From Escherichia virus TH22: a DNA stretch of 64,000 bases. The notes beneath the pieces were generated by a model, which worked only from the letters and a program-made list of their open reading frames with translations, was not told where the DNA came from and did not search any database. The DNA is taken from the sequence record MT446396.1. One strand, given 5' to 3'. The translations under genes and the position numbers were made by a program. This document shows, piece after piece, positions 3,888 through 60,717 of the stretch; the first letter of the stretch is position 1, and every line of letters starts with the position of its first letter.

Positions 3888-5948
3888 ATGTCTGAACAAT
3901 TAAATGAACTCTTTGACAAATATATCGAAGCCTTCGGTTATCCTGTCATTAATATGAATCCAAAATACAAGGTCCCACAGGTTTGGCAATTTGGTGTTCC
4001 TGGGACCAATTCTCTTATGGCTCGTTTGATGCAATTCACGGGCAAAGAAACAGTTAAACAATATAAACGCGGCGATGCAATTGCCGAGGTATTCCTGTTA
4101 TCCGGAACTTCACACGGTCATGCTGTTCCTCTGAAGGGTGGTTTAGGTGAAAAACCTCTTGATGCAATTAACTTGATTTTTACTACAGTCTGGGAAAGCA
4201 TTAAACTAGGCAAACCTGATGTAGTCTTGTTCCGTTTCCCATCCAAAAAGATGAAAGGACAAGACCAAGCTATTATTCGTATTATGAATCGACTGATTCA
4301 AATGAAAACCAGCGGACGTTATCATGTTCTTCCGAATGCTTCTGGCCTTGGTAAAAAGAACGCTTATGTAATTATGTACAAAAGGGGTGTTGACCTGCTT
4401 TCAGTCGATGGTATGCCACCAGTCCCTGAGAAATATAAAAAAGTCGAAACTAAAGTTGGTGATGTATTCACCAATAAAGATAATGGTGCACAAGTATCCA
4501 AACAAGAAATTGCAGCCGAGATTCTGATTGACGCAGCAAACAAAAAGACCGATGCTGCTGTTGCCCAGAAAACTAAAATCAGTCGCCGAGCTATTGCACA
4601 AGCCCAGTACGCTCCAAGTGATTCCGTGCCAGAAGGTTGGGACGAAATCGATGCAGAAGCTGCTAAGTTTAGTCGACCGGCTACGGCAGAACTTATCGAT
4701 GATTATGAAGAACTGGAAATTTTTGTTCGACCTTCCGAAACGAATACTATGGCTCGTATGCGCGCAGCAGATACGGCTATGCGAGCAAATGGTGTTTGGA
4801 AAGAAGAAATTCGTGTTGAAGACTCTGACCCAATTTTTAACCGTATGCATCGCGAACTTAAACGTGCTCCAGTTGGTAGTATGAAGCAGATGCAGATTTT
4901 TGCCGAATCATGCGCAGAGATTCTTAACCTTCGCAAAGCCGCATTTATCGAAAGAAAAATGAATGATGCTCCTCCTAATGTGGATGCAGCCACTTATGCA
5001 GCCTCGCTCTGGGAAAAAGAATACACAAGCGCCATTCGTGTTGCAGTTAAAGACTTTGCTGAAGAAGCATCAGAAAATACTCTTAATTTCACAGCAGGGT
5101 ATACTGACAACCGTTTCCATTATGGTCAGCGAGAAGCAATTGCAGATTATTGTGGAGCAAACTATGCCGATATTAATAATTATTTGATGGGCAAATATTA
5201 TGAAGAAGAAGCTGAATTCCTAAATCTAGACAGAGTTGTCGAAACAATTAAGGAATTGGATTCGGCCTTTGAAATTGGACATAAGTTGCCACCTAATACA
5301 ACTCTTTGGCGTGGTCAATATTTAAACGTTCCTACATTTGATAAAATTAAGAAATCTAAATTATTTTATTTCAGGAACTATGTATCAACGTCGTTTAAAC
5401 CGATTATCTTTGGTGGCTGGGTGGCGAACGTTGCTATGGCTGCAGTTCATCAGGACTATCGTGATGGGACATCTTTCCAGGCTGATGACGAAATTGTTTT
5501 ACCAGATATGCCGGAAGCACGCCGCGACCACGTAATGATGCATGTTGGTTGGAAAATTTCTGGGGCGGACTTAATTAACGTAATTGTTCCTGGGGAATTG
5601 TCAGGCAACCCATCCGAGCAGGAAGTTATTCTTCCTCGTGGGACTGTAGTTAAGATTACCAAAATTACTGATGCTTCGTATCAAGGAAACGCGAACGTCA
5701 AAATGCTGGAAGCTGATATCCAGACTACGGACCAACTGGATGAAAATGCAGTTATCTATGATGGTGATGTGTTGATGGAAACTGGTGAGCTTGTCGTTTA
5801 TCAGGGCGAGGAAACAGAAGAGCCAGTAGAATCTGTTGACTTTGCATCGTTTGCATCCTCTGGGGTAACGAAGAAAGTCAATCAAGGTCTTGGTATTCTT
5901 GCTAGTTGTATTAATTTGGAAGCTATTCCTCCTAAATTCCTTTCGTAA
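3888..5948 (+). CDS. alt: Alt-like ADP-ribosyltransferase (capsid-packaged, injected)
   Basis: 686 aa (T4 Alt about 682 aa); position between ligase and gene 54 as in T4; C-terminal R-S-E motifs (LWRGQ, YVSTSF, EQEVILPRG). Confidence 0.85.
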   Translation: MSEQLNELFDKYIEAFGYPVINMNPKYKVPQVWQFGVPGTNSLMARLMQFTGKETVKQYKRGDAIAEVFLLSGTSHGHAVPLKGGLGEKPLDAINLIFTTVWESIKLGKPDVVLFRFPSKKMKGQDQAIIRIMNRLIQMKTSGRYHVLPNASGLGKKNAYVIMYKRGVDLLSVDGMPPVPEKYKKVETKVGDVFTNKDNGAQVSKQEIAAEILIDAANKKTDAAVAQKTKISRRAIAQAQYAPSDSVPEGWDEIDAEAAKFSRPATAELIDDYEELEIFVRPSETNTMARMRAADTAMRANGVWKEEIRVEDSDPIFNRMHRELKRAPVGSMKQMQIFAESCAEILNLRKAAFIERKMNDAPPNVDAATYAASLWEKEYTSAIRVAVKDFAEEASENTLNFTAGYTDNRFHYGQREAIADYCGANYADINNYLMGKYYEEEAEFLNLDRVVETIKELDSAFEIGHKLPPNTTLWRGQYLNVPTFDKIKKSKLFYFRNYVSTSFKPIIFGGWVANVAMAAVHQDYRDGTSFQADDEIVLPDMPEARRDHVMMHVGWKISGADLINVIVPGELSGNPSEQEVILPRGTVVKITKITDASYQGNANVKMLEADIQTTDQLDENAVIYDGDVLMETGELVVYQGEETEEPVESVDFASFASSGVTKKVNQGLGILASCINLEAIPPKFLS

Positions 5949-7290: not shown

Positions 7291-8384
7291 TAGAAACCCT
7301 CCGCATATAACGAGCCACGGTTAAGCGTAATGATTTCACGGAAAGTGATTTCAAGTACAAAAGTCGATGGCAGGTTAGGAGCAATAGCTAATCCGCCGAA
7401 ATGACCATCCGGAGATTTATCAAATCTTATGCTCTGAATCTGACATGGCCCAAATAGCTCCCCACGACCATCGTACGAGCTTGTATCACCAAAGTTGCGG
7501 ATATACCAGATAGTAGGGTTAGAGACCACCAGAACGTTCGTTAGGAAGCTTGTTATCTCTTCACCGAGCAACTTGCCGTCAAAGTTATCGATTGCTTCCT
7601 TTTTGAAGGTGGATTTATACCATGTATCGATTTTTTCTTTCAGCTCGGAAGCAAACGAACTTTTACCAGTTTCCCCATATGAGTAATAGTTAAAAATCTC
7701 GTATATCTTCACTATCTGGATTAAGTCCTGGGCCGAACGTGGAGTCATTTCCCATGTGTAAACTTTTGTCCTGTTATCCGGGCCAGCGTACATGCTTCTT
7801 GCCGTTGTGTAAATCTGTTCACCGTGGTCGGCCATTACACCGTTTGTAACTGATTCGAGTGCGCCGAAAACTGCAGTCGATGCGATGTTACTAAGAATAC
7901 CGGTGGCTGAGCCACCCCCTTTCGTAATAAGAGATTCACCAACATCATTGAATCGATGCGACACGGATTCTACATCAGACTTCGAACGAGGCAATAGGAT
8001 ATTTGCAACAGCGTTCGAATCAAAACTTTTACCTGTTGAGCCGGCGCCGGTTAATTTCGATTTAGCAAAAGATGTTAAACTTTTAACCGGGTTAAATGAA
8101 GCACCATTTGAAACGTTCTTTAATGAAGTCAATTGGCTTGACCTATCTGAGCGTAATTCCGGAGATGTTCTTGAACTGAAATTGTATGCCGTGAATAACA
8201 GACCATTTTTATAAAGGTCATTAACTCGCATATCATCTGAAGAATCATTACCGGAAGCTCGTTCTGCTGGATATTGCGCCACAATAGTAGCTTGAGTCGG
8301 GGCAGCTTTTGACTGCCCCGCGGAGGTCTTAGAACCTCCGTTAAACAAACCCGCAATATCAATATCGAGTTCTTTTACTTTCAT
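7290..8384 (-). CDS. 48: baseplate tail-tube cap/junction protein
   Basis: 364 aa, same length as T4 gp48; synteny. Confidence 0.8.
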   Translation of the reverse strand: MKVKELDIDIAGLFNGGSKTSAGQSKAAPTQATIVAQYPAERASGNDSSDDMRVNDLYKNGLLFTAYNFSSRTSPELRSDRSSQLTSLKNVSNGASFNPVKSLTSFAKSKLTGAGSTGKSFDSNAVANILLPRSKSDVESVSHRFNDVGESLITKGGGSATGILSNIASTAVFGALESVTNGVMADHGEQIYTTARSMYAGPDNRTKVYTWEMTPRSAQDLIQIVKIYEIFNYYSYGETGKSSFASELKEKIDTWYKSTFKKEAIDNFDGKLLGEEITSFLTNVLVVSNPTIWYIRNFGDTSSYDGRGELFGPCQIQSIRFDKSPDGHFGGLAIAPNLPSTFVLEITFREIITLNRGSLYAEGF

Positions 8385-58950: not shown

Positions 58951-59423
58951 ATATTAAATTTGGACAGACTATCCCTAAAGGTTATGTTGTTGAAATTGAA
59001 ACCTGGGAAAATGACGGTGATAACTATAAAACCCAGACAATATTTGGTGTAGAAGAACAAGAAATCCAACAGTACAAATATATCCTAGAACTTTTCCATG
59101 GTTCGCATTGCAACAACCCGGATAAATGTGGTAATTCAGAATGGGACGTAGTTAAAGACTTTATTATCGCACACATTGAATCTGGTGTAAAATCTGGCCA
59201 ATTAACTCCTGAATTCATTAACAAAACACTTTGTATTGAAAATCTGGAAAACCTGGTTGAAGGTGGCAATGGCCAGGAATTTGAATTATTGTGTTCTCTC
59301 CAGGAATTGCTGGGCGAGCCGGTGGAATATGATAGCGTTTTGCGCGTAGTTTCGTGGGTAAAATTATACATCATCGAAGAAGAAATCCAAATACCAAACG
59401 TTAAAGCACTTGATATGCTTTAA
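58947..59423 (+). CDS. hypothetical protein (158 aa)
   Basis: ATGA-coupled; the ORF-track TTG start at 58941 rejected. Confidence 0.45.
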   Translation: MNIKFGQTIPKGYVVEIETWENDGDNYKTQTIFGVEEQEIQQYKYILELFHGSHCNNPDKCGNSEWDVVKDFIIAHIESGVKSGQLTPEFINKTLCIENLENLVEGGNGQEFELLCSLQELLGEPVEYDSVLRVVSWVKLYIIEEEIQIPNVKALDML

Positions 59424-59501
59424 TAAAAACGCGTTATTATTAATAAGTACCCTCTATTACCAAAGGTTCTTCCCTCAAAGAGCCTTTCATAATAGAATTA
59501 A

Positions 59502-59575
59502 GGCCCTGTAGCTGGACGGTCAAGCGAGCGACTCATAATCGCTGGATGGTGGTTCGATTCCACCCAGGGCCACCA
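59502..59575 (+). tRNA. tRNA with CAT anticodon (Met, or Ile if lysidine-modified)
   Basis: Hand-folded cloverleaf: acceptor GGCCCTG/CAGGGCC, anticodon stem AGCGA/TCGCT with loop CTCATAA, T-arm GGTGG-TTCGATT-CCACC, encoded CCA. Confidence 0.75.
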
Positions 59576-59595
59576 AACTTATTTTAAATTATCAT

Positions 59596-59700
59596 GGCGA
59601 TAGGTATTGTAGATGCGGTTCGATTCCGTCCGGGGTAAGTGCCCTAGCATGCTTGGAGCATGAGTGACTTAATATTGGTGGTTCGAGTCCACCCCGCTAT
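59596..59700 (+). ncRNA. tRNA-like / degenerate tRNA region with two T-arm-like motifs but no canonical cloverleaf
   Basis: GCGG-TTCGATT-CCGT and GGTGG-TTCGAGT-CCACC present; no matching 7-bp acceptor stem found by hand. Confidence 0.25.
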
Positions 59701-59709
59701 GAACAAACA

Positions 59710-59785
59710 CGAGGCATAGCTCAGAAGGAAGAGCAAGGACCTTCTAAGTCCTAGGTCGTAGGTTCGATTCCTACTGTCTCGACCA
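59710..59785 (+). tRNA. tRNA-Arg (anticodon TCT)
   Basis: Hand-folded cloverleaf: acceptor CGAGGCA/TGTCTCG (one G-U), D-stem GCTC/GAGC, anticodon stem AGGAC/GTCCT with loop CTTCTAA, T-arm GTAGG-TTCGATT-CCTAC, encoded CCA. Confidence 0.8.
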
Positions 59786-59958
59786 AACAAGAAACCGGGT
59801 CGCTACCGGTAAGTCGTCGGACTGAAGTTCCCTGTTTAAGGACTGGCATTAATAAATCTTTACGATTTGTTGATGTCCCCTTATATCACAGCTGAAACGG
59901 CGCACCTAATTAACGATTCGAGGAAATATCTTTGCCGTAAGCCGAGTAGCGTTTTTGA

Positions 59959-60050
59959 CGGAACGTTCGGATATGGTCGAGATATGGCCTTTTAAAAATA
60001 TTGAGTAGCGTCAACTACTTGATAACCGGGTTCAAATCCCGGCGTTTCGT
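59959..60050 (+). ncRNA. tRNA-like RNA (92 nt) with acceptor stem, T-arm and a long internal hairpin but no canonical anticodon arm
   Basis: CGGAACG pairs with CGTTTCG; T-arm CCGGG-TTCAAAT-CCCGG; internal hairpin AGTAG-CGTCAA-CTACT. Confidence 0.3.
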
Positions 60051-60101
60051 ACAAACACTTGCCTAGCAGGTGGAACCCCGACAAGGTTGCCACAAGGTAT
60101 A

Positions 60102-60129
60102 GCCCCTTCCGAAAGGTTGGGGCTTTTTT
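60102..60129 (+). terminator. rho-independent terminator after the tRNA cluster
   Basis: GCCCCTTCC-GAAA-GGTTGGGGC hairpin followed by T6. Confidence 0.8.
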
Positions 60130-60136
60130 ATAAATA
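60129..60136 (+). promoter_or_regulatory. late-promoter-like TATAAATA upstream of ORF 60163
   Basis: Exact TATAAATA about 27 nt upstream of the ATG. Confidence 0.45.
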
Positions 60137-60162
60137 TAACGTACCCATAACTAAGGAAATTT

Positions 60163-60717
60163 ATGAAACTTTTAAAATATCTAAGCTGGATTCTGTTAGT
60201 ACCACTGGATTTCATTTCAATGATTCTGGCTGTTATCCTTGCACCATTTGTAGTGCCGTTCCATAACAAAAAGACTGGTAAGCTTCCGTTCGGATTTGAC
60301 TGGATGATGACATACGATAATCCAATTGATGGTGACCGTGGTCATGTTAAACGCTGGGAAAAAATCAGAAAATGGCCGTTAGGCGTTTACTTCCAGCGAG
60401 TGGCCTGGCTCTGGCGAAACAAAGCCTACAATTTTGCTTATCATAAGCTGGGCCGCGATTGCGATTCTAAATTCCATTATAAAGGTAATCCTGATGTTGA
60501 ATCGGGCTCCCCGGATAAAGCTCACCATGGCTGGCTCTGGATGTGGAATGATAATGCATGGGGCGTGTTCGCTTCCGTACCTTATCTTAAAGTTGGTGGA
60601 ATCACCTTTTATCTGCGCGTGTATTGCGGTTGGAAGCTCAAAAGTCTTCTGTCCCGTCCTATCCCGAAAGCTATGTTAGCCTTTCATATCAATCCCTTCC
60701 GTTTTTATAAGAACTAA
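60163..60717 (+). CDS. hypothetical protein with N-terminal transmembrane segment (184 aa)
   Basis: AAGGA Shine-Dalgarno; hydrophobic N-terminus LSWILLVPLDFISMILAVILAPFVV; Trp/His-rich body. Confidence 0.5.
   Translation: MKLLKYLSWILLVPLDFISMILAVILAPFVVPFHNKKTGKLPFGFDWMMTYDNPIDGDRGHVKRWEKIRKWPLGVYFQRVAWLWRNKAYNFAYHKLGRDCDSKFHYKGNPDVESGSPDKAHHGWLWMWNDNAWGVFASVPYLKVGGITFYLRVYCGWKLKSLLSRPIPKAMLAFHINPFRFYKN

What the first reader, a model, noticed from the sequence alone, without database searches (positions are those of the whole stretch)
59576..60050. Non-canonical tRNA-like elements in the tRNA cluster
Besides the two clean tRNAs, the cluster contains two T-arm-like motifs between them (59596-59700) that do not assemble into a cloverleaf by hand folding. 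It also contains a 92-nt element (59959-60050) with a 7-bp acceptor-like stem, a perfect T-arm and a long internal hairpin, but no recognisable anticodon arm. T4 encodes small stable RNAs of unknown function in its tRNA region; these may be counterparts, decayed tRNAs, or tRNA-derived regulatory RNAs.
Basis: seen in the sequence. Interest (0 to 1): 0.5.

Follow-up and report, generated by a model that had tools for sequence, protein, structure and literature searches.

The report
tRNA-like stable RNAs in phage tRNA cluster
Next to two ordinary tRNA genes, this T4-like phage carries copies of T4's two long-known small RNAs of unknown function and an undescribed, conserved 110-base RNA built like one tRNA nested in another, which unrelated N4-like coliphages also carry.

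Summary
All five T-loop motifs of the 64-kb window lie in 59551-60039 on the + strand (0.29 expected by chance). Only tRNA-Met and tRNA-Arg are callable tRNAs.

The 92-nt element is already known.

The element with two T-arms (59593-59702) is not a decayed tRNA. It is a distinct 110-nt RNA family with 24 distinct copies, found in a few T4-like phages and in N4-like Gamaleyavirus phages, and unannotated in all but one of the 39 phage records that hold it (that one lists a hypothetical protein). Five helices are supported by covariation: 97% of cells paired and 9 of 26 pairs changed on both sides. It combines a 7-bp acceptor stem and a T-arm with an inner module, T-arm-like hairpin, closed stem, UAG, D-arm-like hairpin, which is a circularly permuted tRNA top as in bacterial YrlA Y RNAs. 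It has no anticodon arm and matches no Rfam family.

The likely mechanism is inferred: excision by tRNA-processing enzymes, then action as a non-decoding tRNA mimic. The function is unknown.

The parts
59502..59575 (+). tRNA-Met (CAT), canonical, CCA encoded
   Evidence: ARAGORN. Rfam tRNA 62.6 bits.
59593..59702 (+). Element 1: 110-nt tRNA-like RNA with two T-arms ('tRNA within a tRNA'). New family. Includes discriminator A 59702.
   Evidence: 24 distinct homologues in T4-like and N4-like phages. Covariance model R1 scores true copies at 112-147 bits and the best ordinary tRNA at 23 bits. 97% of cells paired and 9 of 26 pairs changed on both sides. No Rfam family.
59593..59599 (+). Element 1 acceptor stem, 5' strand CAUGGCG. 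Pairs with 59695-59701, CGCUAUG.
   Evidence: 7 pairs, 4 of them changed on both sides; pair types include CG/UA, AU/GC/CG/UA and CG/GU/UA/AU. RNAalifold recovers 6 of the pairs.
59600..59614 (+). Element 1 5' linker AUAGGUAUUGUAGAU. Possible 2-bp mini D-hairpin 59600-59601/59606-59607 with a GG-containing loop. GUAGAU is near-invariant (one A in 23 sequences).
   Evidence: RNAalifold pairs columns 11-19 and 12-18, both compensatory between the two clades. Conserved columns.
59615..59629 (+). Element 1 helix H1: T-arm-like hairpin GCGG-UUCGAUU-CCGU
   Evidence: 4 pairs, 98.9% paired, with GC<->CG and GU/AU/GC variation.
59633..59644 (+). Element 1 helix H2: closed stem GGGU-AAGU-GCCC, the acceptor-stem analogue of the inner module
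   Evidence: 5 model pairs, 3 changed on both sides, in the model-guided alignment. CkP1 has C-G where the window has U.G.
59645..59662 (+). Invariant UAG, then helix H3: D-arm-like hairpin CAUGC-UUGGA-GCAUG with GG in the loop
   Evidence: 5 pairs, 100% paired, AU<->GC compensatory.
59663..59676 (+). Element 1 3' linker AGUGACUUAAUAUU. Conserved GACUUA(A/G)UA. No anticodon stem.
   Evidence: Invariant columns. No conserved pairing found.
59677..59694 (+). Element 1 T-arm GGUGG-UUCGAGU-CCACC, plus unpaired C 59694 before the acceptor 3' strand
   Evidence: 5 pairs, 100% paired, with GU/GC/AU variation. C at column 110 is in all 23 sequences.
59710..59785 (+). tRNA-Arg (TCT), canonical, CCA encoded
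   Evidence: ARAGORN. Rfam tRNA 68.4 bits.
59787..59906 (+). Homologue of T4 rnaD (species 2 RNA).
   Evidence: Aligns with T4 71053-71171 directly after tRNA-Arg. The rnaD+rnaC query matches 796 phage records.
59913..60051 (+). Homologue of T4 rnaC (species 1 RNA), 139 nt.
   Evidence: Near-identical to T4 70908-71046. Conserved as far as Karamvirus and Kanagawavirus.
59914..59920 (+). rnaC terminal (acceptor-like) stem, 5' strand CGAUUCG. Pairs with 60043-60049, CGUUUCG. Two invariant U.U mismatches.
   Evidence: The third pair covaries perfectly, AU x9 and GC x6; four pairs are invariant. Fits the annotated T4 RNA ends.
59950..59965 (+). rnaC local hairpin CGUUUU-UGAC-GGAACG.
Evidence: 6 pairs, 100% paired, 4 changed on both sides.
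60001..60022 (+). rnaC long hairpin UUGAGUAG-CGUCAA-CUACUUGA. The loop is invariant apart from one A at its first base.
   Evidence: 8 pairs, 6 changed on both sides.
60026..60042 (+). rnaC T-arm CCGGG-UUCAAAU-CCCGG
   Evidence: 5 pairs, 100% paired, with GC/UA/AU at the middle pair.
60101..60129 (+). Terminator-like hairpin AGCCCC...GGGGCU followed by a run of U; probable end of the RNA cluster transcript
   Evidence: Read directly from the sequence. The simple scan did not list it, and it was not otherwise tested.

Best explanation
The 740-nt non-coding stretch is the phage's stable-RNA operon: tRNA-Met, Element 1, tRNA-Arg, rnaD, rnaC, then a terminator-like hairpin.

Shown. The second 'non-canonical' element is part of the homologue of T4 rnaC (species 1 RNA). 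Element 1 is a separate, conserved, structured 110-nt RNA. It has a tRNA-type 7-bp acceptor stem and T-arm on the outside. Where the anticodon arm should be, it carries an inner module made of a T-arm-like hairpin, a closed stem, UAG, and a D-arm-like hairpin. That module is a circularly permuted tRNA top half.

Inferred. Like the neighbouring tRNAs, Element 1 and rnaC are cut out of the cluster transcript by host tRNA-processing enzymes, because each presents an acceptor/T-arm minihelix: RNase P at the 5' end, exonuclease trimming and possibly CCA addition at the 3' end. They then accumulate as stable RNAs. With no anticodon arm they cannot decode. They most likely act in trans as tRNA mimics that occupy or titrate a host factor recognising the acceptor/T-arm/elbow part of tRNA. 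Such a factor could be a processing or modification enzyme, or a tRNA-directed toxin or defence nuclease. Which factor it is remains unknown.
For: - Identity of rnaD and rnaC: alignment with the annotated T4 genes in the same position. 796 phage records match. T4 RNAC and RNAD are reported as expressed RNAs, RNAC being probed on a Northern blot, with unknown function (PMC9697503; PMC3014915).
- Element 1 is a real RNA family. blastn finds it at 95-100% identity in VR5, VR25, TH15, TH40, PEi20, KLB31 and CkP1, and at 76-81% in N4-like Gamaleyavirus phages. Similarity ends at the element's borders.
- The five-helix fold is 97% paired, with 9 of 26 pairs changed on both sides. None of 500 shuffles reaches the covariation score, and slid controls give 43-61% pairing. 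RNAalifold independently recovers four of the helices.
- Model R1 separates true copies (112-147 bits) from ordinary tRNAs (at most 23 bits).
- tRNA-like processing context. The element is on the same strand as the tRNAs. In PEi20, KLB31 and L009 it starts 2-3 nt after the CCA of the preceding tRNA. It has a 7-bp acceptor stem and canonical UUCGANU T-loops.
- No anticodon arm: ARAGORN and Rfam make no call, and the 3' linker has no conserved pairing.
- The order T-arm, closed stem, D-arm matches the published architecture of the YrlA tRNA-like domain. M. smegmatis YrlA, which has a 7-bp stem, is cut by RNase P and receives CCA (PMC4201824).
Against: - No expression data exist for Element 1 in any phage.
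- The thermodynamic signal is weak: z = -1.0 for the window copy and -1.8 for G7C. The consensus fold is 4-8 kcal/mol above the MFE.
- Much of the covariation comes from the single split between the T4-like and N4-like clades, so the number of independent events is small.
- An unpaired C (59694) lies between the T-stem and the acceptor stem. Position 1:72 is mismatched in most N4-like copies. No CCA is encoded. RNase P or CCA-enzyme recognition is therefore assumed, not shown.
- No binding partner is identified.
- The phyletic distribution is narrow: 39 of 50,697 phage records and 0 hits in 185,579 bacterial and archaeal genomes. The element is dispensable for most T4-like phages.
Confidence: 0.55

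Rival explanations
1. Element 1 is a decayed or scrambled tRNA, for example the remnant of two adjacent tRNA genes or of the tRNA-Asn that relatives carry in this slot. It has no function of its own.
For: The slot between tRNA-Met and tRNA-Arg is variable. MN04 and PhAPEC2 have tRNA-Asn there. CM8 has an insert of about 100 nt that scores below threshold as tRNA, 22.7 bits against a cut-off of 29. The order of modules in Element 1 is what two anticodon-less tRNAs in tandem would give (inference).
Against: The element is conserved in two unrelated phage families with compensatory changes in all five helices, and similarity is confined to the element. It shares nothing with tRNA-Asn beyond the T-loop. 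No tRNA-model hit appears even at E<=10, unlike the CM8 pseudo-tRNA.
Confidence: 0.1
2. Element 1, and the tRNA-like end of rnaC, serve only in cis as processing punctuation. The tRNA-like fold recruits RNase P to separate neighbouring tRNAs or mRNAs, and the excised RNA has no function.
For: In PEi20, KLB31 and CkP1 the element lies between a tRNA or tRNA remnant and a downstream gene whose ribosome-binding site follows within about 15 nt. The RNase P determinants, an acceptor stem and a T-arm, are the best conserved outer features.
Against: Punctuation would need only the acceptor/T-arm minihelix. The inner module (H1, H2, H3) and the unpaired GUAGAU, UAG and GACUUA motifs are as conserved as the outer helices. 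The downstream context is not conserved: tRNA-Arg in the window, protein genes in the Kanagawavirus phages and CkP1 (Karamvirus), and other RNA genes in N4-like phages.
Confidence: 0.15
3. Element 1 is a Y-RNA-like scaffold. Its inner YrlA-type tRNA-like domain and outer stem tether a Ro60/Rsr-type protein or an exoribonuclease to structured RNA substrates.
For: The inner module has the same order, T stem-loop, closed 'acceptor' stem-loop, D stem-loop, as described for YrlA (PMC4201824). That paper reports YrlA-like RNAs in phages.
Against: Rfam YrlA (RF02553) gives only a 14.5-bit hit against a cut-off of 69. That hit is in a different register, spanning the outer T-arm and the start of tRNA-Arg. 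Nothing annotated as Ro60 or TROVE lies within 3.5 kb in VR25, though most neighbours are unnamed hypothetical proteins that were not domain-scanned. The Ro60-binding motif GNCGAAN0-1G is absent from N4-like copies. From my own knowledge, E. coli K-12 lacks rsr.
Confidence: 0.07
4. Element 1 is a minimal tmRNA-like RNA. It would be aminoacylated, enter stalled ribosomes, and provide a short reading frame ending in a stop codon.
For: It has the form of a tmRNA tRNA-like domain: an acceptor stem, a T-arm, and a GG-containing D-loop analogue with no long stem. The frame CUA GCA UGC UUG GAG CAU GAG UGA (59644-59667) keeps a stop codon directly after GAG/GAA in both clades despite a 2-nt indel. The N4-like phages that carry Element 1 also carry a tmRNA-like tag frame, ANDDVVLMAA, a few hundred nt upstream.
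Against: There is no conserved G3.U70: the G.U pair sits at a different position in each clade and is A-U in CkP1. There are no pseudoknots. Half of the substitutions in the frame are non-synonymous, and the synonymous ones are the compensatory changes of helix H3. Rfam tmRNA models hit only the T-loops, at 8-9 bits. The putative peptide lacks a degradation-tag ending.
Confidence: 0.03
5. One reading: an independent 92-nt tRNA-like RNA (59959-60050), with the stem 59959-59965/60043-60049 as its acceptor stem, processed at 59959.
For: The 7-bp stem, with one G.U, can form in the window and in T4-type sequences. In phage PG7 the corresponding 95 nt were annotated as a 'tRNA-Met'.
Against: T4 rnaC is annotated as 139 nt, starting 46 nt further upstream. 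The stem is disrupted in IME523, L044, L051, PEi20 and EnC15 and shows no compensatory change. The competing local hairpin and the terminal stem both covary.
Confidence: 0.1

Closest known systems
Bacteriophage T4 rnaC (species 1 RNA) and rnaD (species 2 RNA)
   Same: Window 59787-60051 is their direct homologue. It sits in the same position after tRNA-Arg, the lengths match (120 and 139 nt), and rnaC is almost identical in sequence. Element 1 shares the design principle of rnaC: an acceptor-like terminal stem, a canonical T-arm, and a non-tRNA core with no anticodon arm.
   Different: Element 1 shares no sequence with rnaC or rnaD beyond the T-loop. It is absent from T4, has a second T-arm-like hairpin, and also occurs in N4-like phages.
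YrlA bacterial Y RNAs (Rfam RF02553), tRNA-like domain
   Same: The inner module of Element 1 has the YrlA order of T stem-loop, closed 'acceptor' stem-loop, D stem-loop, that is, a circularly permuted tRNA top (PMC4201824).
   Different: In Element 1 the enclosing helix is a tRNA acceptor stem stacked on a second T-arm, not a Ro60-binding helix. There is no rsr neighbour and the RF02553 model does not match.
tmRNA tRNA-like domain
   Same: An acceptor stem plus a T-arm, with a D-loop analogue that lacks a long stem and no anticodon arm; the rest of the RNA is inserted between D and T.
   Different: Element 1 has no conserved G3.U70, no pseudoknots and no convincing tag frame. It is 110 nt against more than 250. 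The Rfam tmRNA models do not match.
Canonical tRNA (Rfam RF00005), including type II tRNAs with a long variable arm
   Same: A 7-bp acceptor stem, a 5-bp T-stem with a UUCGANU loop, GG-containing D-like loops, location in a tRNA cluster, and spacing like that of tRNA genes.
   Different: There is no anticodon arm. There is an extra T-arm-like hairpin and an extra unpaired C between the T-stem and the acceptor stem. ARAGORN and RF00005 do not call it even at E<=10.

Membership tests
Canonical tRNA (RF00005) | Cloverleaf with a 5-bp anticodon stem and a 7-nt anticodon loop | tested here: not met
   ARAGORN calls only 59502-59575 and 59710-59785. No RF00005 hit at E<=10 over 59576-59709 or 59786-60130. 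The 3' linker of Element 1 has no conserved pairing.
Canonical tRNA (RF00005) | 7-bp acceptor stem contiguous with a 5-bp T-stem and a 7-nt T-loop | tested here: inconclusive
   Element 1 has both helices, and they covary, but one unpaired C (59694) separates them. rnaC has a contiguous T-arm and terminal stem, but with two U.U mismatches.
T4 rnaC (species 1 RNA) | Sequence homology over the full 139 nt of T4 70908-71046 | tested here: met
   Window 59913-60051 aligns without gaps and with only a few substitutions.
T4 rnaC (species 1 RNA) | Position at the distal end of the tRNA cluster, after rnaD and before the e.x genes | tested here: met
   T4 annotation, VR25 annotation, window alignment.
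T4 rnaC (species 1 RNA) | Accumulates as a stable small RNA in infected cells | not testable with these tools
   Reported for T4 itself (PMC9697503). No data for this phage.
T4 rnaD (species 2 RNA) | Sequence homology to T4 71053-71171, directly after tRNA-Arg | tested here: met
   Window 59787-59906 aligns with T4 rnaD. It is more diverged than rnaC in its middle part.
YrlA / bacterial Y RNA (RF02553) | tRNA-like domain in the order T stem-loop, closed stem-loop, D stem-loop | tested here: met
   H1 (59615-59629), H2 (59633-59644) and H3 (59648-59662) are in that order, and all are supported by covariation. The architecture is as described in PMC4201824.
YrlA / bacterial Y RNA (RF02553) | Match to the covariance model at or above the gathering score (69 bits) | tested here: not met
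   The only hit scores 14.5 bits, at 59675-59734, in a different register.
YrlA / bacterial Y RNA (RF02553) | Ro60-binding helix formed by the 5' and 3' ends, and a gene next to rsr (TROVE protein) | tested here: not met
   The ends form a tRNA-type acceptor stem instead. No rsr is annotated within 3.5 kb in VR25, though most neighbours are unnamed hypothetical proteins; only the two flanking window ORFs were scanned against Pfam, and neither shows a TROVE domain.
tmRNA | G3.U70 alanine identity pair in the acceptor stem | tested here: not met
   The G.U pair is the 4th pair from the T-arm side in four of the five T4-like copies (A-U in CkP1) and the 6th in nearly all N4-like copies (G-C in PW8).
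tmRNA | Tag reading frame with a resume codon, flanked by pseudoknots; match to the Rfam tmRNA models | tested here: not met
   Only the T-loops are matched, at 8-9 bits. There is a short conserved frame with a stop, but no pseudoknots, and the substitutions are mixed.

The most novel reading that the evidence does not exclude
Element 1 is a trans-acting tRNA decoy with two tRNA 'elbows' and no anticodon. By mimicking the acceptor/T-arm/elbow surface twice, it would neutralise a host factor that targets tRNA, such as a defence nuclease or toxin, or a tRNA-surveillance enzyme. On this reading it has been exchanged horizontally between unrelated coliphage families (Straboviridae and Schitoviridae) because it is a portable RNA-only counter-defence gene.
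Probability: 0.2. Interest if true: 0.75.

Novelty: new variant of a known kind. Interest (0 to 1): 0.5.

Why it matters
Phage tRNA clusters are usually annotated with tRNA finders only, so anything that is not a cloverleaf is missed. Here that gap hides three RNA genes.

Two are the T4 species 1 and 2 RNAs. They have been known since the 1970s (my own knowledge), and reviews and papers from 2010, 2022 and 2025 still list their function as unknown. The comparative data give a testable structure for rnaC: a terminal stem with tandem U.U mismatches, and not the internal 'acceptor' stem.

The third, Element 1, is a compact and well-defined RNA family with an unusual nested-tRNA architecture. It is shared by T4-like and N4-like coliphages and absent from bacterial genomes. 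If it is a stable tRNA mimic, it joins rnaC, tmRNA and YrlA as evidence that the tRNA top half is a reusable protein-recruiting module. It also gives a small, genetically tractable handle on what such mimics do during infection, because the phages grow on E. coli and the gene is 110 nt. That includes the current question of how phages counter immunity directed at tRNAs.

Tried and rejected
- tRNA with an unusual anticodon arm. I tried reading H3 (loop CUUGGAG, anticodon UGG) or the linker (CUUAAUA) as anticodon loops. This was rejected because position 37 is U in the N4-like copies and PEi20, the closing C-G pair of H3 is invariant, and the linker has no conserved stem.
- tRNA-Sec or type II tRNA. 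There is no UCA loop and no hit to RF01852.
- Pairing between the 5' linker and the 3' linker, as a pseudo-anticodon stem. No register is conserved in both clades (inspection).
- Thermodynamic significance. z-scores of -1.0 and -1.8 are not informative.
- More distant homologues. One pattern of two T-loops plus TAGCNNGCTTGG was scanned over IMG/VR (9 loci), JGI metagenomes (6 loci, all N4-like) and GTDB genomes (0 hits). The family looks narrow, but exact-pattern scans miss diverged members.
- Further copies among held sequences. R1 found one copy per phage. It did not detect the CM8 insert in the same slot, which is a sub-threshold tRNA.
- Literature. Searches on rnaC/rnaD, YrlA, tRNA-like phage RNAs, G7C and Gamaleyavirus found no description of Element 1 in the held library.
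- rnaD structure. It was only aligned, not modelled. In that script the window record was overwritten by an alignment row, so the window itself is missing from that one output.
Full report
**What is in the region.** The window comes from a T4-like coliphage. Its closest records are TH15, VR25 and VR5; VR25 is classified in Gaprivervirus. Between a 160-aa ORF ending at 59423 and a DUF7338 gene starting at 60163 lie 740 nt without a credible ORF. ARAGORN and Rfam, at gathering thresholds, call only tRNA-Met (59502-59575) and tRNA-Arg-TCT (59710-59785). A permissive Rfam scan of 59400-60200 at E<=10 adds nothing beyond fragments matching isolated T-loops. The T-loop pattern GGTTCRANTCC occurs five times in the 64-kb window. 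All five are on the + strand within 59551-60039, against 0.29 expected by chance.

**The second element is T4 rnaC, and rnaD precedes it.** In T4, tRNA-Arg is followed by rnaD (species 2 RNA, 119 nt) and rnaC (species 1 RNA, 139 nt). Window 59787-60051 aligns with these two genes in the same position. The rnaC part differs by only a few substitutions. By transfer of the T4 coordinates, the rnaD homologue is 59787-59906 and the rnaC homologue is 59913-60051. The rnaD+rnaC query matches 796 phage records, nearly always unannotated or overlaid by spurious 'hypothetical proteins'. In phage PG7 the 3' 95 nt of rnaC are annotated as a 'tRNA-Met'. The literature available here still gives their function as unknown (PMC3014915; PMC9697503; PMC12685909).

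I aligned 15 distinct rnaC homologues, including diverged ones from Karamvirus and Kanagawavirus phages, and counted two alternative structures.

- Terminal stem: the 3' strand CGUUUCG covaries with the extreme 5' end of the RNA, CGAUUCG (59914-59920). The third pair is A-U in 9 sequences and G-C in 6, four pairs are invariant, and two central U.U mismatches are invariant.

This terminal stem agrees with the 139-nt length of the T4 RNA. The T-arm (60026-60042) and the long hairpin (60001-60022, loop CGUCAA invariant apart from one A at its first base) are confirmed, with several compensatory changes. There is indeed no anticodon arm.

**The first element is a distinct, conserved RNA family.** blastn with 59576-59709 finds only 39 phage records.

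- Identical or near-identical copies: VR5, VR25, TH15 and TH40.
- 95-98% copies in other T4-like genera: Kanagawavirus PEi20, PEi26 and KLB31, and Karamvirus CkP1.
- 76-81% copies in N4-like podophages of the genus Gamaleyavirus: G7C, EC1-UPM, pSb-1, St11Ph5, PhAPEC5, PhAPEC7 and others.

In 38 of the 39 records nothing is annotated under the match; Mimir124 lists a hypothetical protein. Similarity stops at the borders of the element. T4 and most T4-like phages lack it. Relatives such as MN04 and PhAPEC2 have tRNA-Asn in this slot, and CM8 has a degenerate tRNA there. Pattern scans added copies from IMG/VR and metagenomes and found none in 185,579 bacterial and archaeal genomes. In total there are 24 distinct sequences. 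Mean identity is 96% within the T4-like group, 93% within the N4-like group and 68% between the groups.

**Structure of Element 1 (59593-59702), in 5' to 3' order.**

- 7-bp acceptor stem, 59593-59599 with 59695-59701.
- 5' linker AUAGGUAUUGUAGAU. It may hold a 2-bp mini-hairpin whose loop contains GG.
- H1, a T-arm-like hairpin, 59615-59629, loop UUCGAUU.
- CCG.
- H2, a closed stem, 59633-59644.
- Invariant UAG.
- H3, a D-arm-like hairpin, 59648-59662, loop UUGGA.
- 3' linker AGUGACUUAAUAUU.
- A canonical T-arm, 59677-59693, loop UUCGAGU.
- One unpaired C (59694), the acceptor 3' strand, and discriminator A (59702).

On a MAFFT alignment four helices are 97% paired, with 6 pairs changed on both sides. 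No shuffle reaches the covariation score, and slid controls give 42-65% pairing. On the model-guided alignment all five helices give 97% paired and 9 of 26 pairs changed on both sides. RNAalifold independently recovers the acceptor stem, H1, H3 and the T-arm, and adds the mini-hairpin. A covariance model built from the family scores true copies at 112-147 bits and ordinary tRNAs at 23 bits or less, with exactly one copy per phage. Two caveats apply. Many of the double changes trace to the single T4-like/N4-like split. Folding energy alone is not significant.

**Reading the architecture.** The outer parts, acceptor stem, T-arm and a GG-containing loop just after the acceptor 5' strand, are those of a tRNA or of the tRNA-like domain of tmRNA. 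The inner parts come in the order T-arm-like hairpin, closed stem, UA(G), D-arm-like hairpin. That is the order of a tRNA top half circularly permuted so that its acceptor stem is closed by a loop. The same arrangement is described for the tRNA-like domain of bacterial YrlA Y RNAs (PMC4201824). Element 1 is therefore best described as one tRNA-like module inserted where the anticodon arm of another would be. With two T-loops and two GG loops it could form two tRNA elbows; that is inference, since no 3D tool was available. It is not a member of the YrlA family. The Rfam model does not match, the ends form an acceptor stem rather than a Ro60-binding helix, and no rsr gene is annotated nearby. 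It is not a tmRNA either. There is no conserved G3.U70, there are no pseudoknots, and there is no model match.

**How it most likely works.** The steps shown are that it is a conserved structured RNA gene, on the tRNA strand, inside tRNA clusters. In the Kanagawavirus phages PEi20 and KLB31 and in the uncultivated contig L009 it starts 2-3 nt after the CCA of the preceding tRNA. The inferred steps are as follows. The acceptor/T-arm minihelix makes it a substrate for RNase P at its 5' end, and for 3' trimming and perhaps CCA addition. This is shown for M. smegmatis YrlA, which has a 7-bp stem, and is long established for T4 tRNA precursors (my own knowledge). The excised RNA accumulates, cannot decode, and acts as a tRNA mimic toward some factor that reads the top half of tRNA.

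I rate a decoy or titration role as the most likely single function, at roughly one in three. Pure processing punctuation, a Y-RNA-like scaffold, a mini-tmRNA and non-functional decay are less likely, for the reasons given under the rivals. Confidence in the identity and fold statements is high. Confidence in the mechanism is low to moderate.

**Verdict.** The finding is half ordinary and half new. rnaC and rnaD are known genes rediscovered; the added value is a corrected secondary structure. Element 1 is an undescribed tRNA-like RNA family with an unusual nested design and a striking distribution across two unrelated coliphage families. It is a new variant of a known kind, the tRNA-mimicking stable RNAs. 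It would interest RNA and phage specialists and is easy to test experimentally.

Noticed in passing
L036 2320-2422 (-) = phage UE-S5a PP175015.1; L053 905-965 (+) = phage ShWW44 PQ900156.1: N4-like Gamaleyavirus phages that carry Element 1 also carry, a few hundred nt upstream, a tmRNA-like tag frame: GCA AAC GAU GAU GUU GUU CUG AUG GCG GCG UAA UAG, giving ANDDVVLMAA. Rfam tmRNA_permuted scores 32.7 bits, below its cut-off of 47. ARAGORN calls no tmRNA. A 'tRNA-Ala' (ShWW44) and a 'tRNA-Cys' (UE-S5a) annotated nearby may be its tRNA-like part. This could be a divergent or permuted phage tmRNA.
   Followed up: partly
L036 1200-2620 (-); L005 960-2200 (+) (phage G7C): The stretch of almost 2 kb with no annotated CDS (L005 965-2893) between gp47.2 and gp50 of G7C-like phages holds several further hairpins with canonical T-loops followed by acceptor-like 3' strands and ACCA. 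An example is UCUGGUUCGAGUCCAGACGCCGGAACCA. ARAGORN does not call them, and the only calls are odd ones: tRNA-Ile(AAT) and a tRNA with a 2-nt 'anticodon'. It looks like a whole cluster of non-canonical tRNA-like RNAs.
   Followed up: partly
L003 678-781 (phage CM8 MK962750.1): In the same slot between tRNA-Met and tRNA-Arg, CM8 has a different insert of about 100 nt with a GUA anticodon-like loop. It scores 22.7 bits as tRNA, below the cut-off of 29, so it looks like a degenerate tRNA. Its upstream junction AAGAATTAAG resembles the sequence just upstream of Element 1 in N4-like phages.
   Followed up: partly
L037 554-648 (phage PG7 NC_023561.1): The 3' 95 nt of the rnaC homologue are annotated as a 95-nt 'tRNA-Met' in this RefSeq record.
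   Followed up: yes
window 60052-60100: The trailer between rnaC and the terminator-like hairpin is almost as conserved with T4 as rnaC itself. It contains a 7-bp hairpin, CACUUGC-CUA-GCAGGUG, at about 60055-60071. It may be part of the rnaC precursor or a separate element.
   Followed up: no
window 60131-60138: TATAAATA, the consensus of T4 late promoters (my own knowledge), lies directly after the terminator-like hairpin and 25 nt before the ATG of the DUF7338 gene (60163-60717).
   Followed up: no
window 59644-59667 (inside Element 1): The reading frame CUA GCA UGC UUG GAG CAU GAG UGA keeps a stop codon immediately after GAG/GAA in both the T4-like and N4-like copies, despite a 2-nt indel just downstream. 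About half of the substitutions are synonymous. This is probably a by-product of helix H3.
   Followed up: partly
L008 328-963 and 964-1000 (phage CkP1 MW239124.1): In CkP1, Element 1 is preceded only by the 3' remnant of a tRNA (...GGGGCCACCA). Directly upstream is a 211-aa ORF with sub-threshold Phage_endo_I and NUMOD3 matches, which may be a homing-endonuclease-like gene that disrupted the tRNA.
   Followed up: partly
L013 (phage PEi20): Element 1 at 7977-8091 (-), rnaC T-arm region at 5144-5189 (-): PEi20 carries both Element 1 and a diverged rnaC about 2.8 kb apart but lacks rnaD in front of rnaC. In the Karamvirus phages PG7 and EnC15 and the Kanagawavirus phage IME523, rnaC follows ordinary tRNAs instead..
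   Followed up: no
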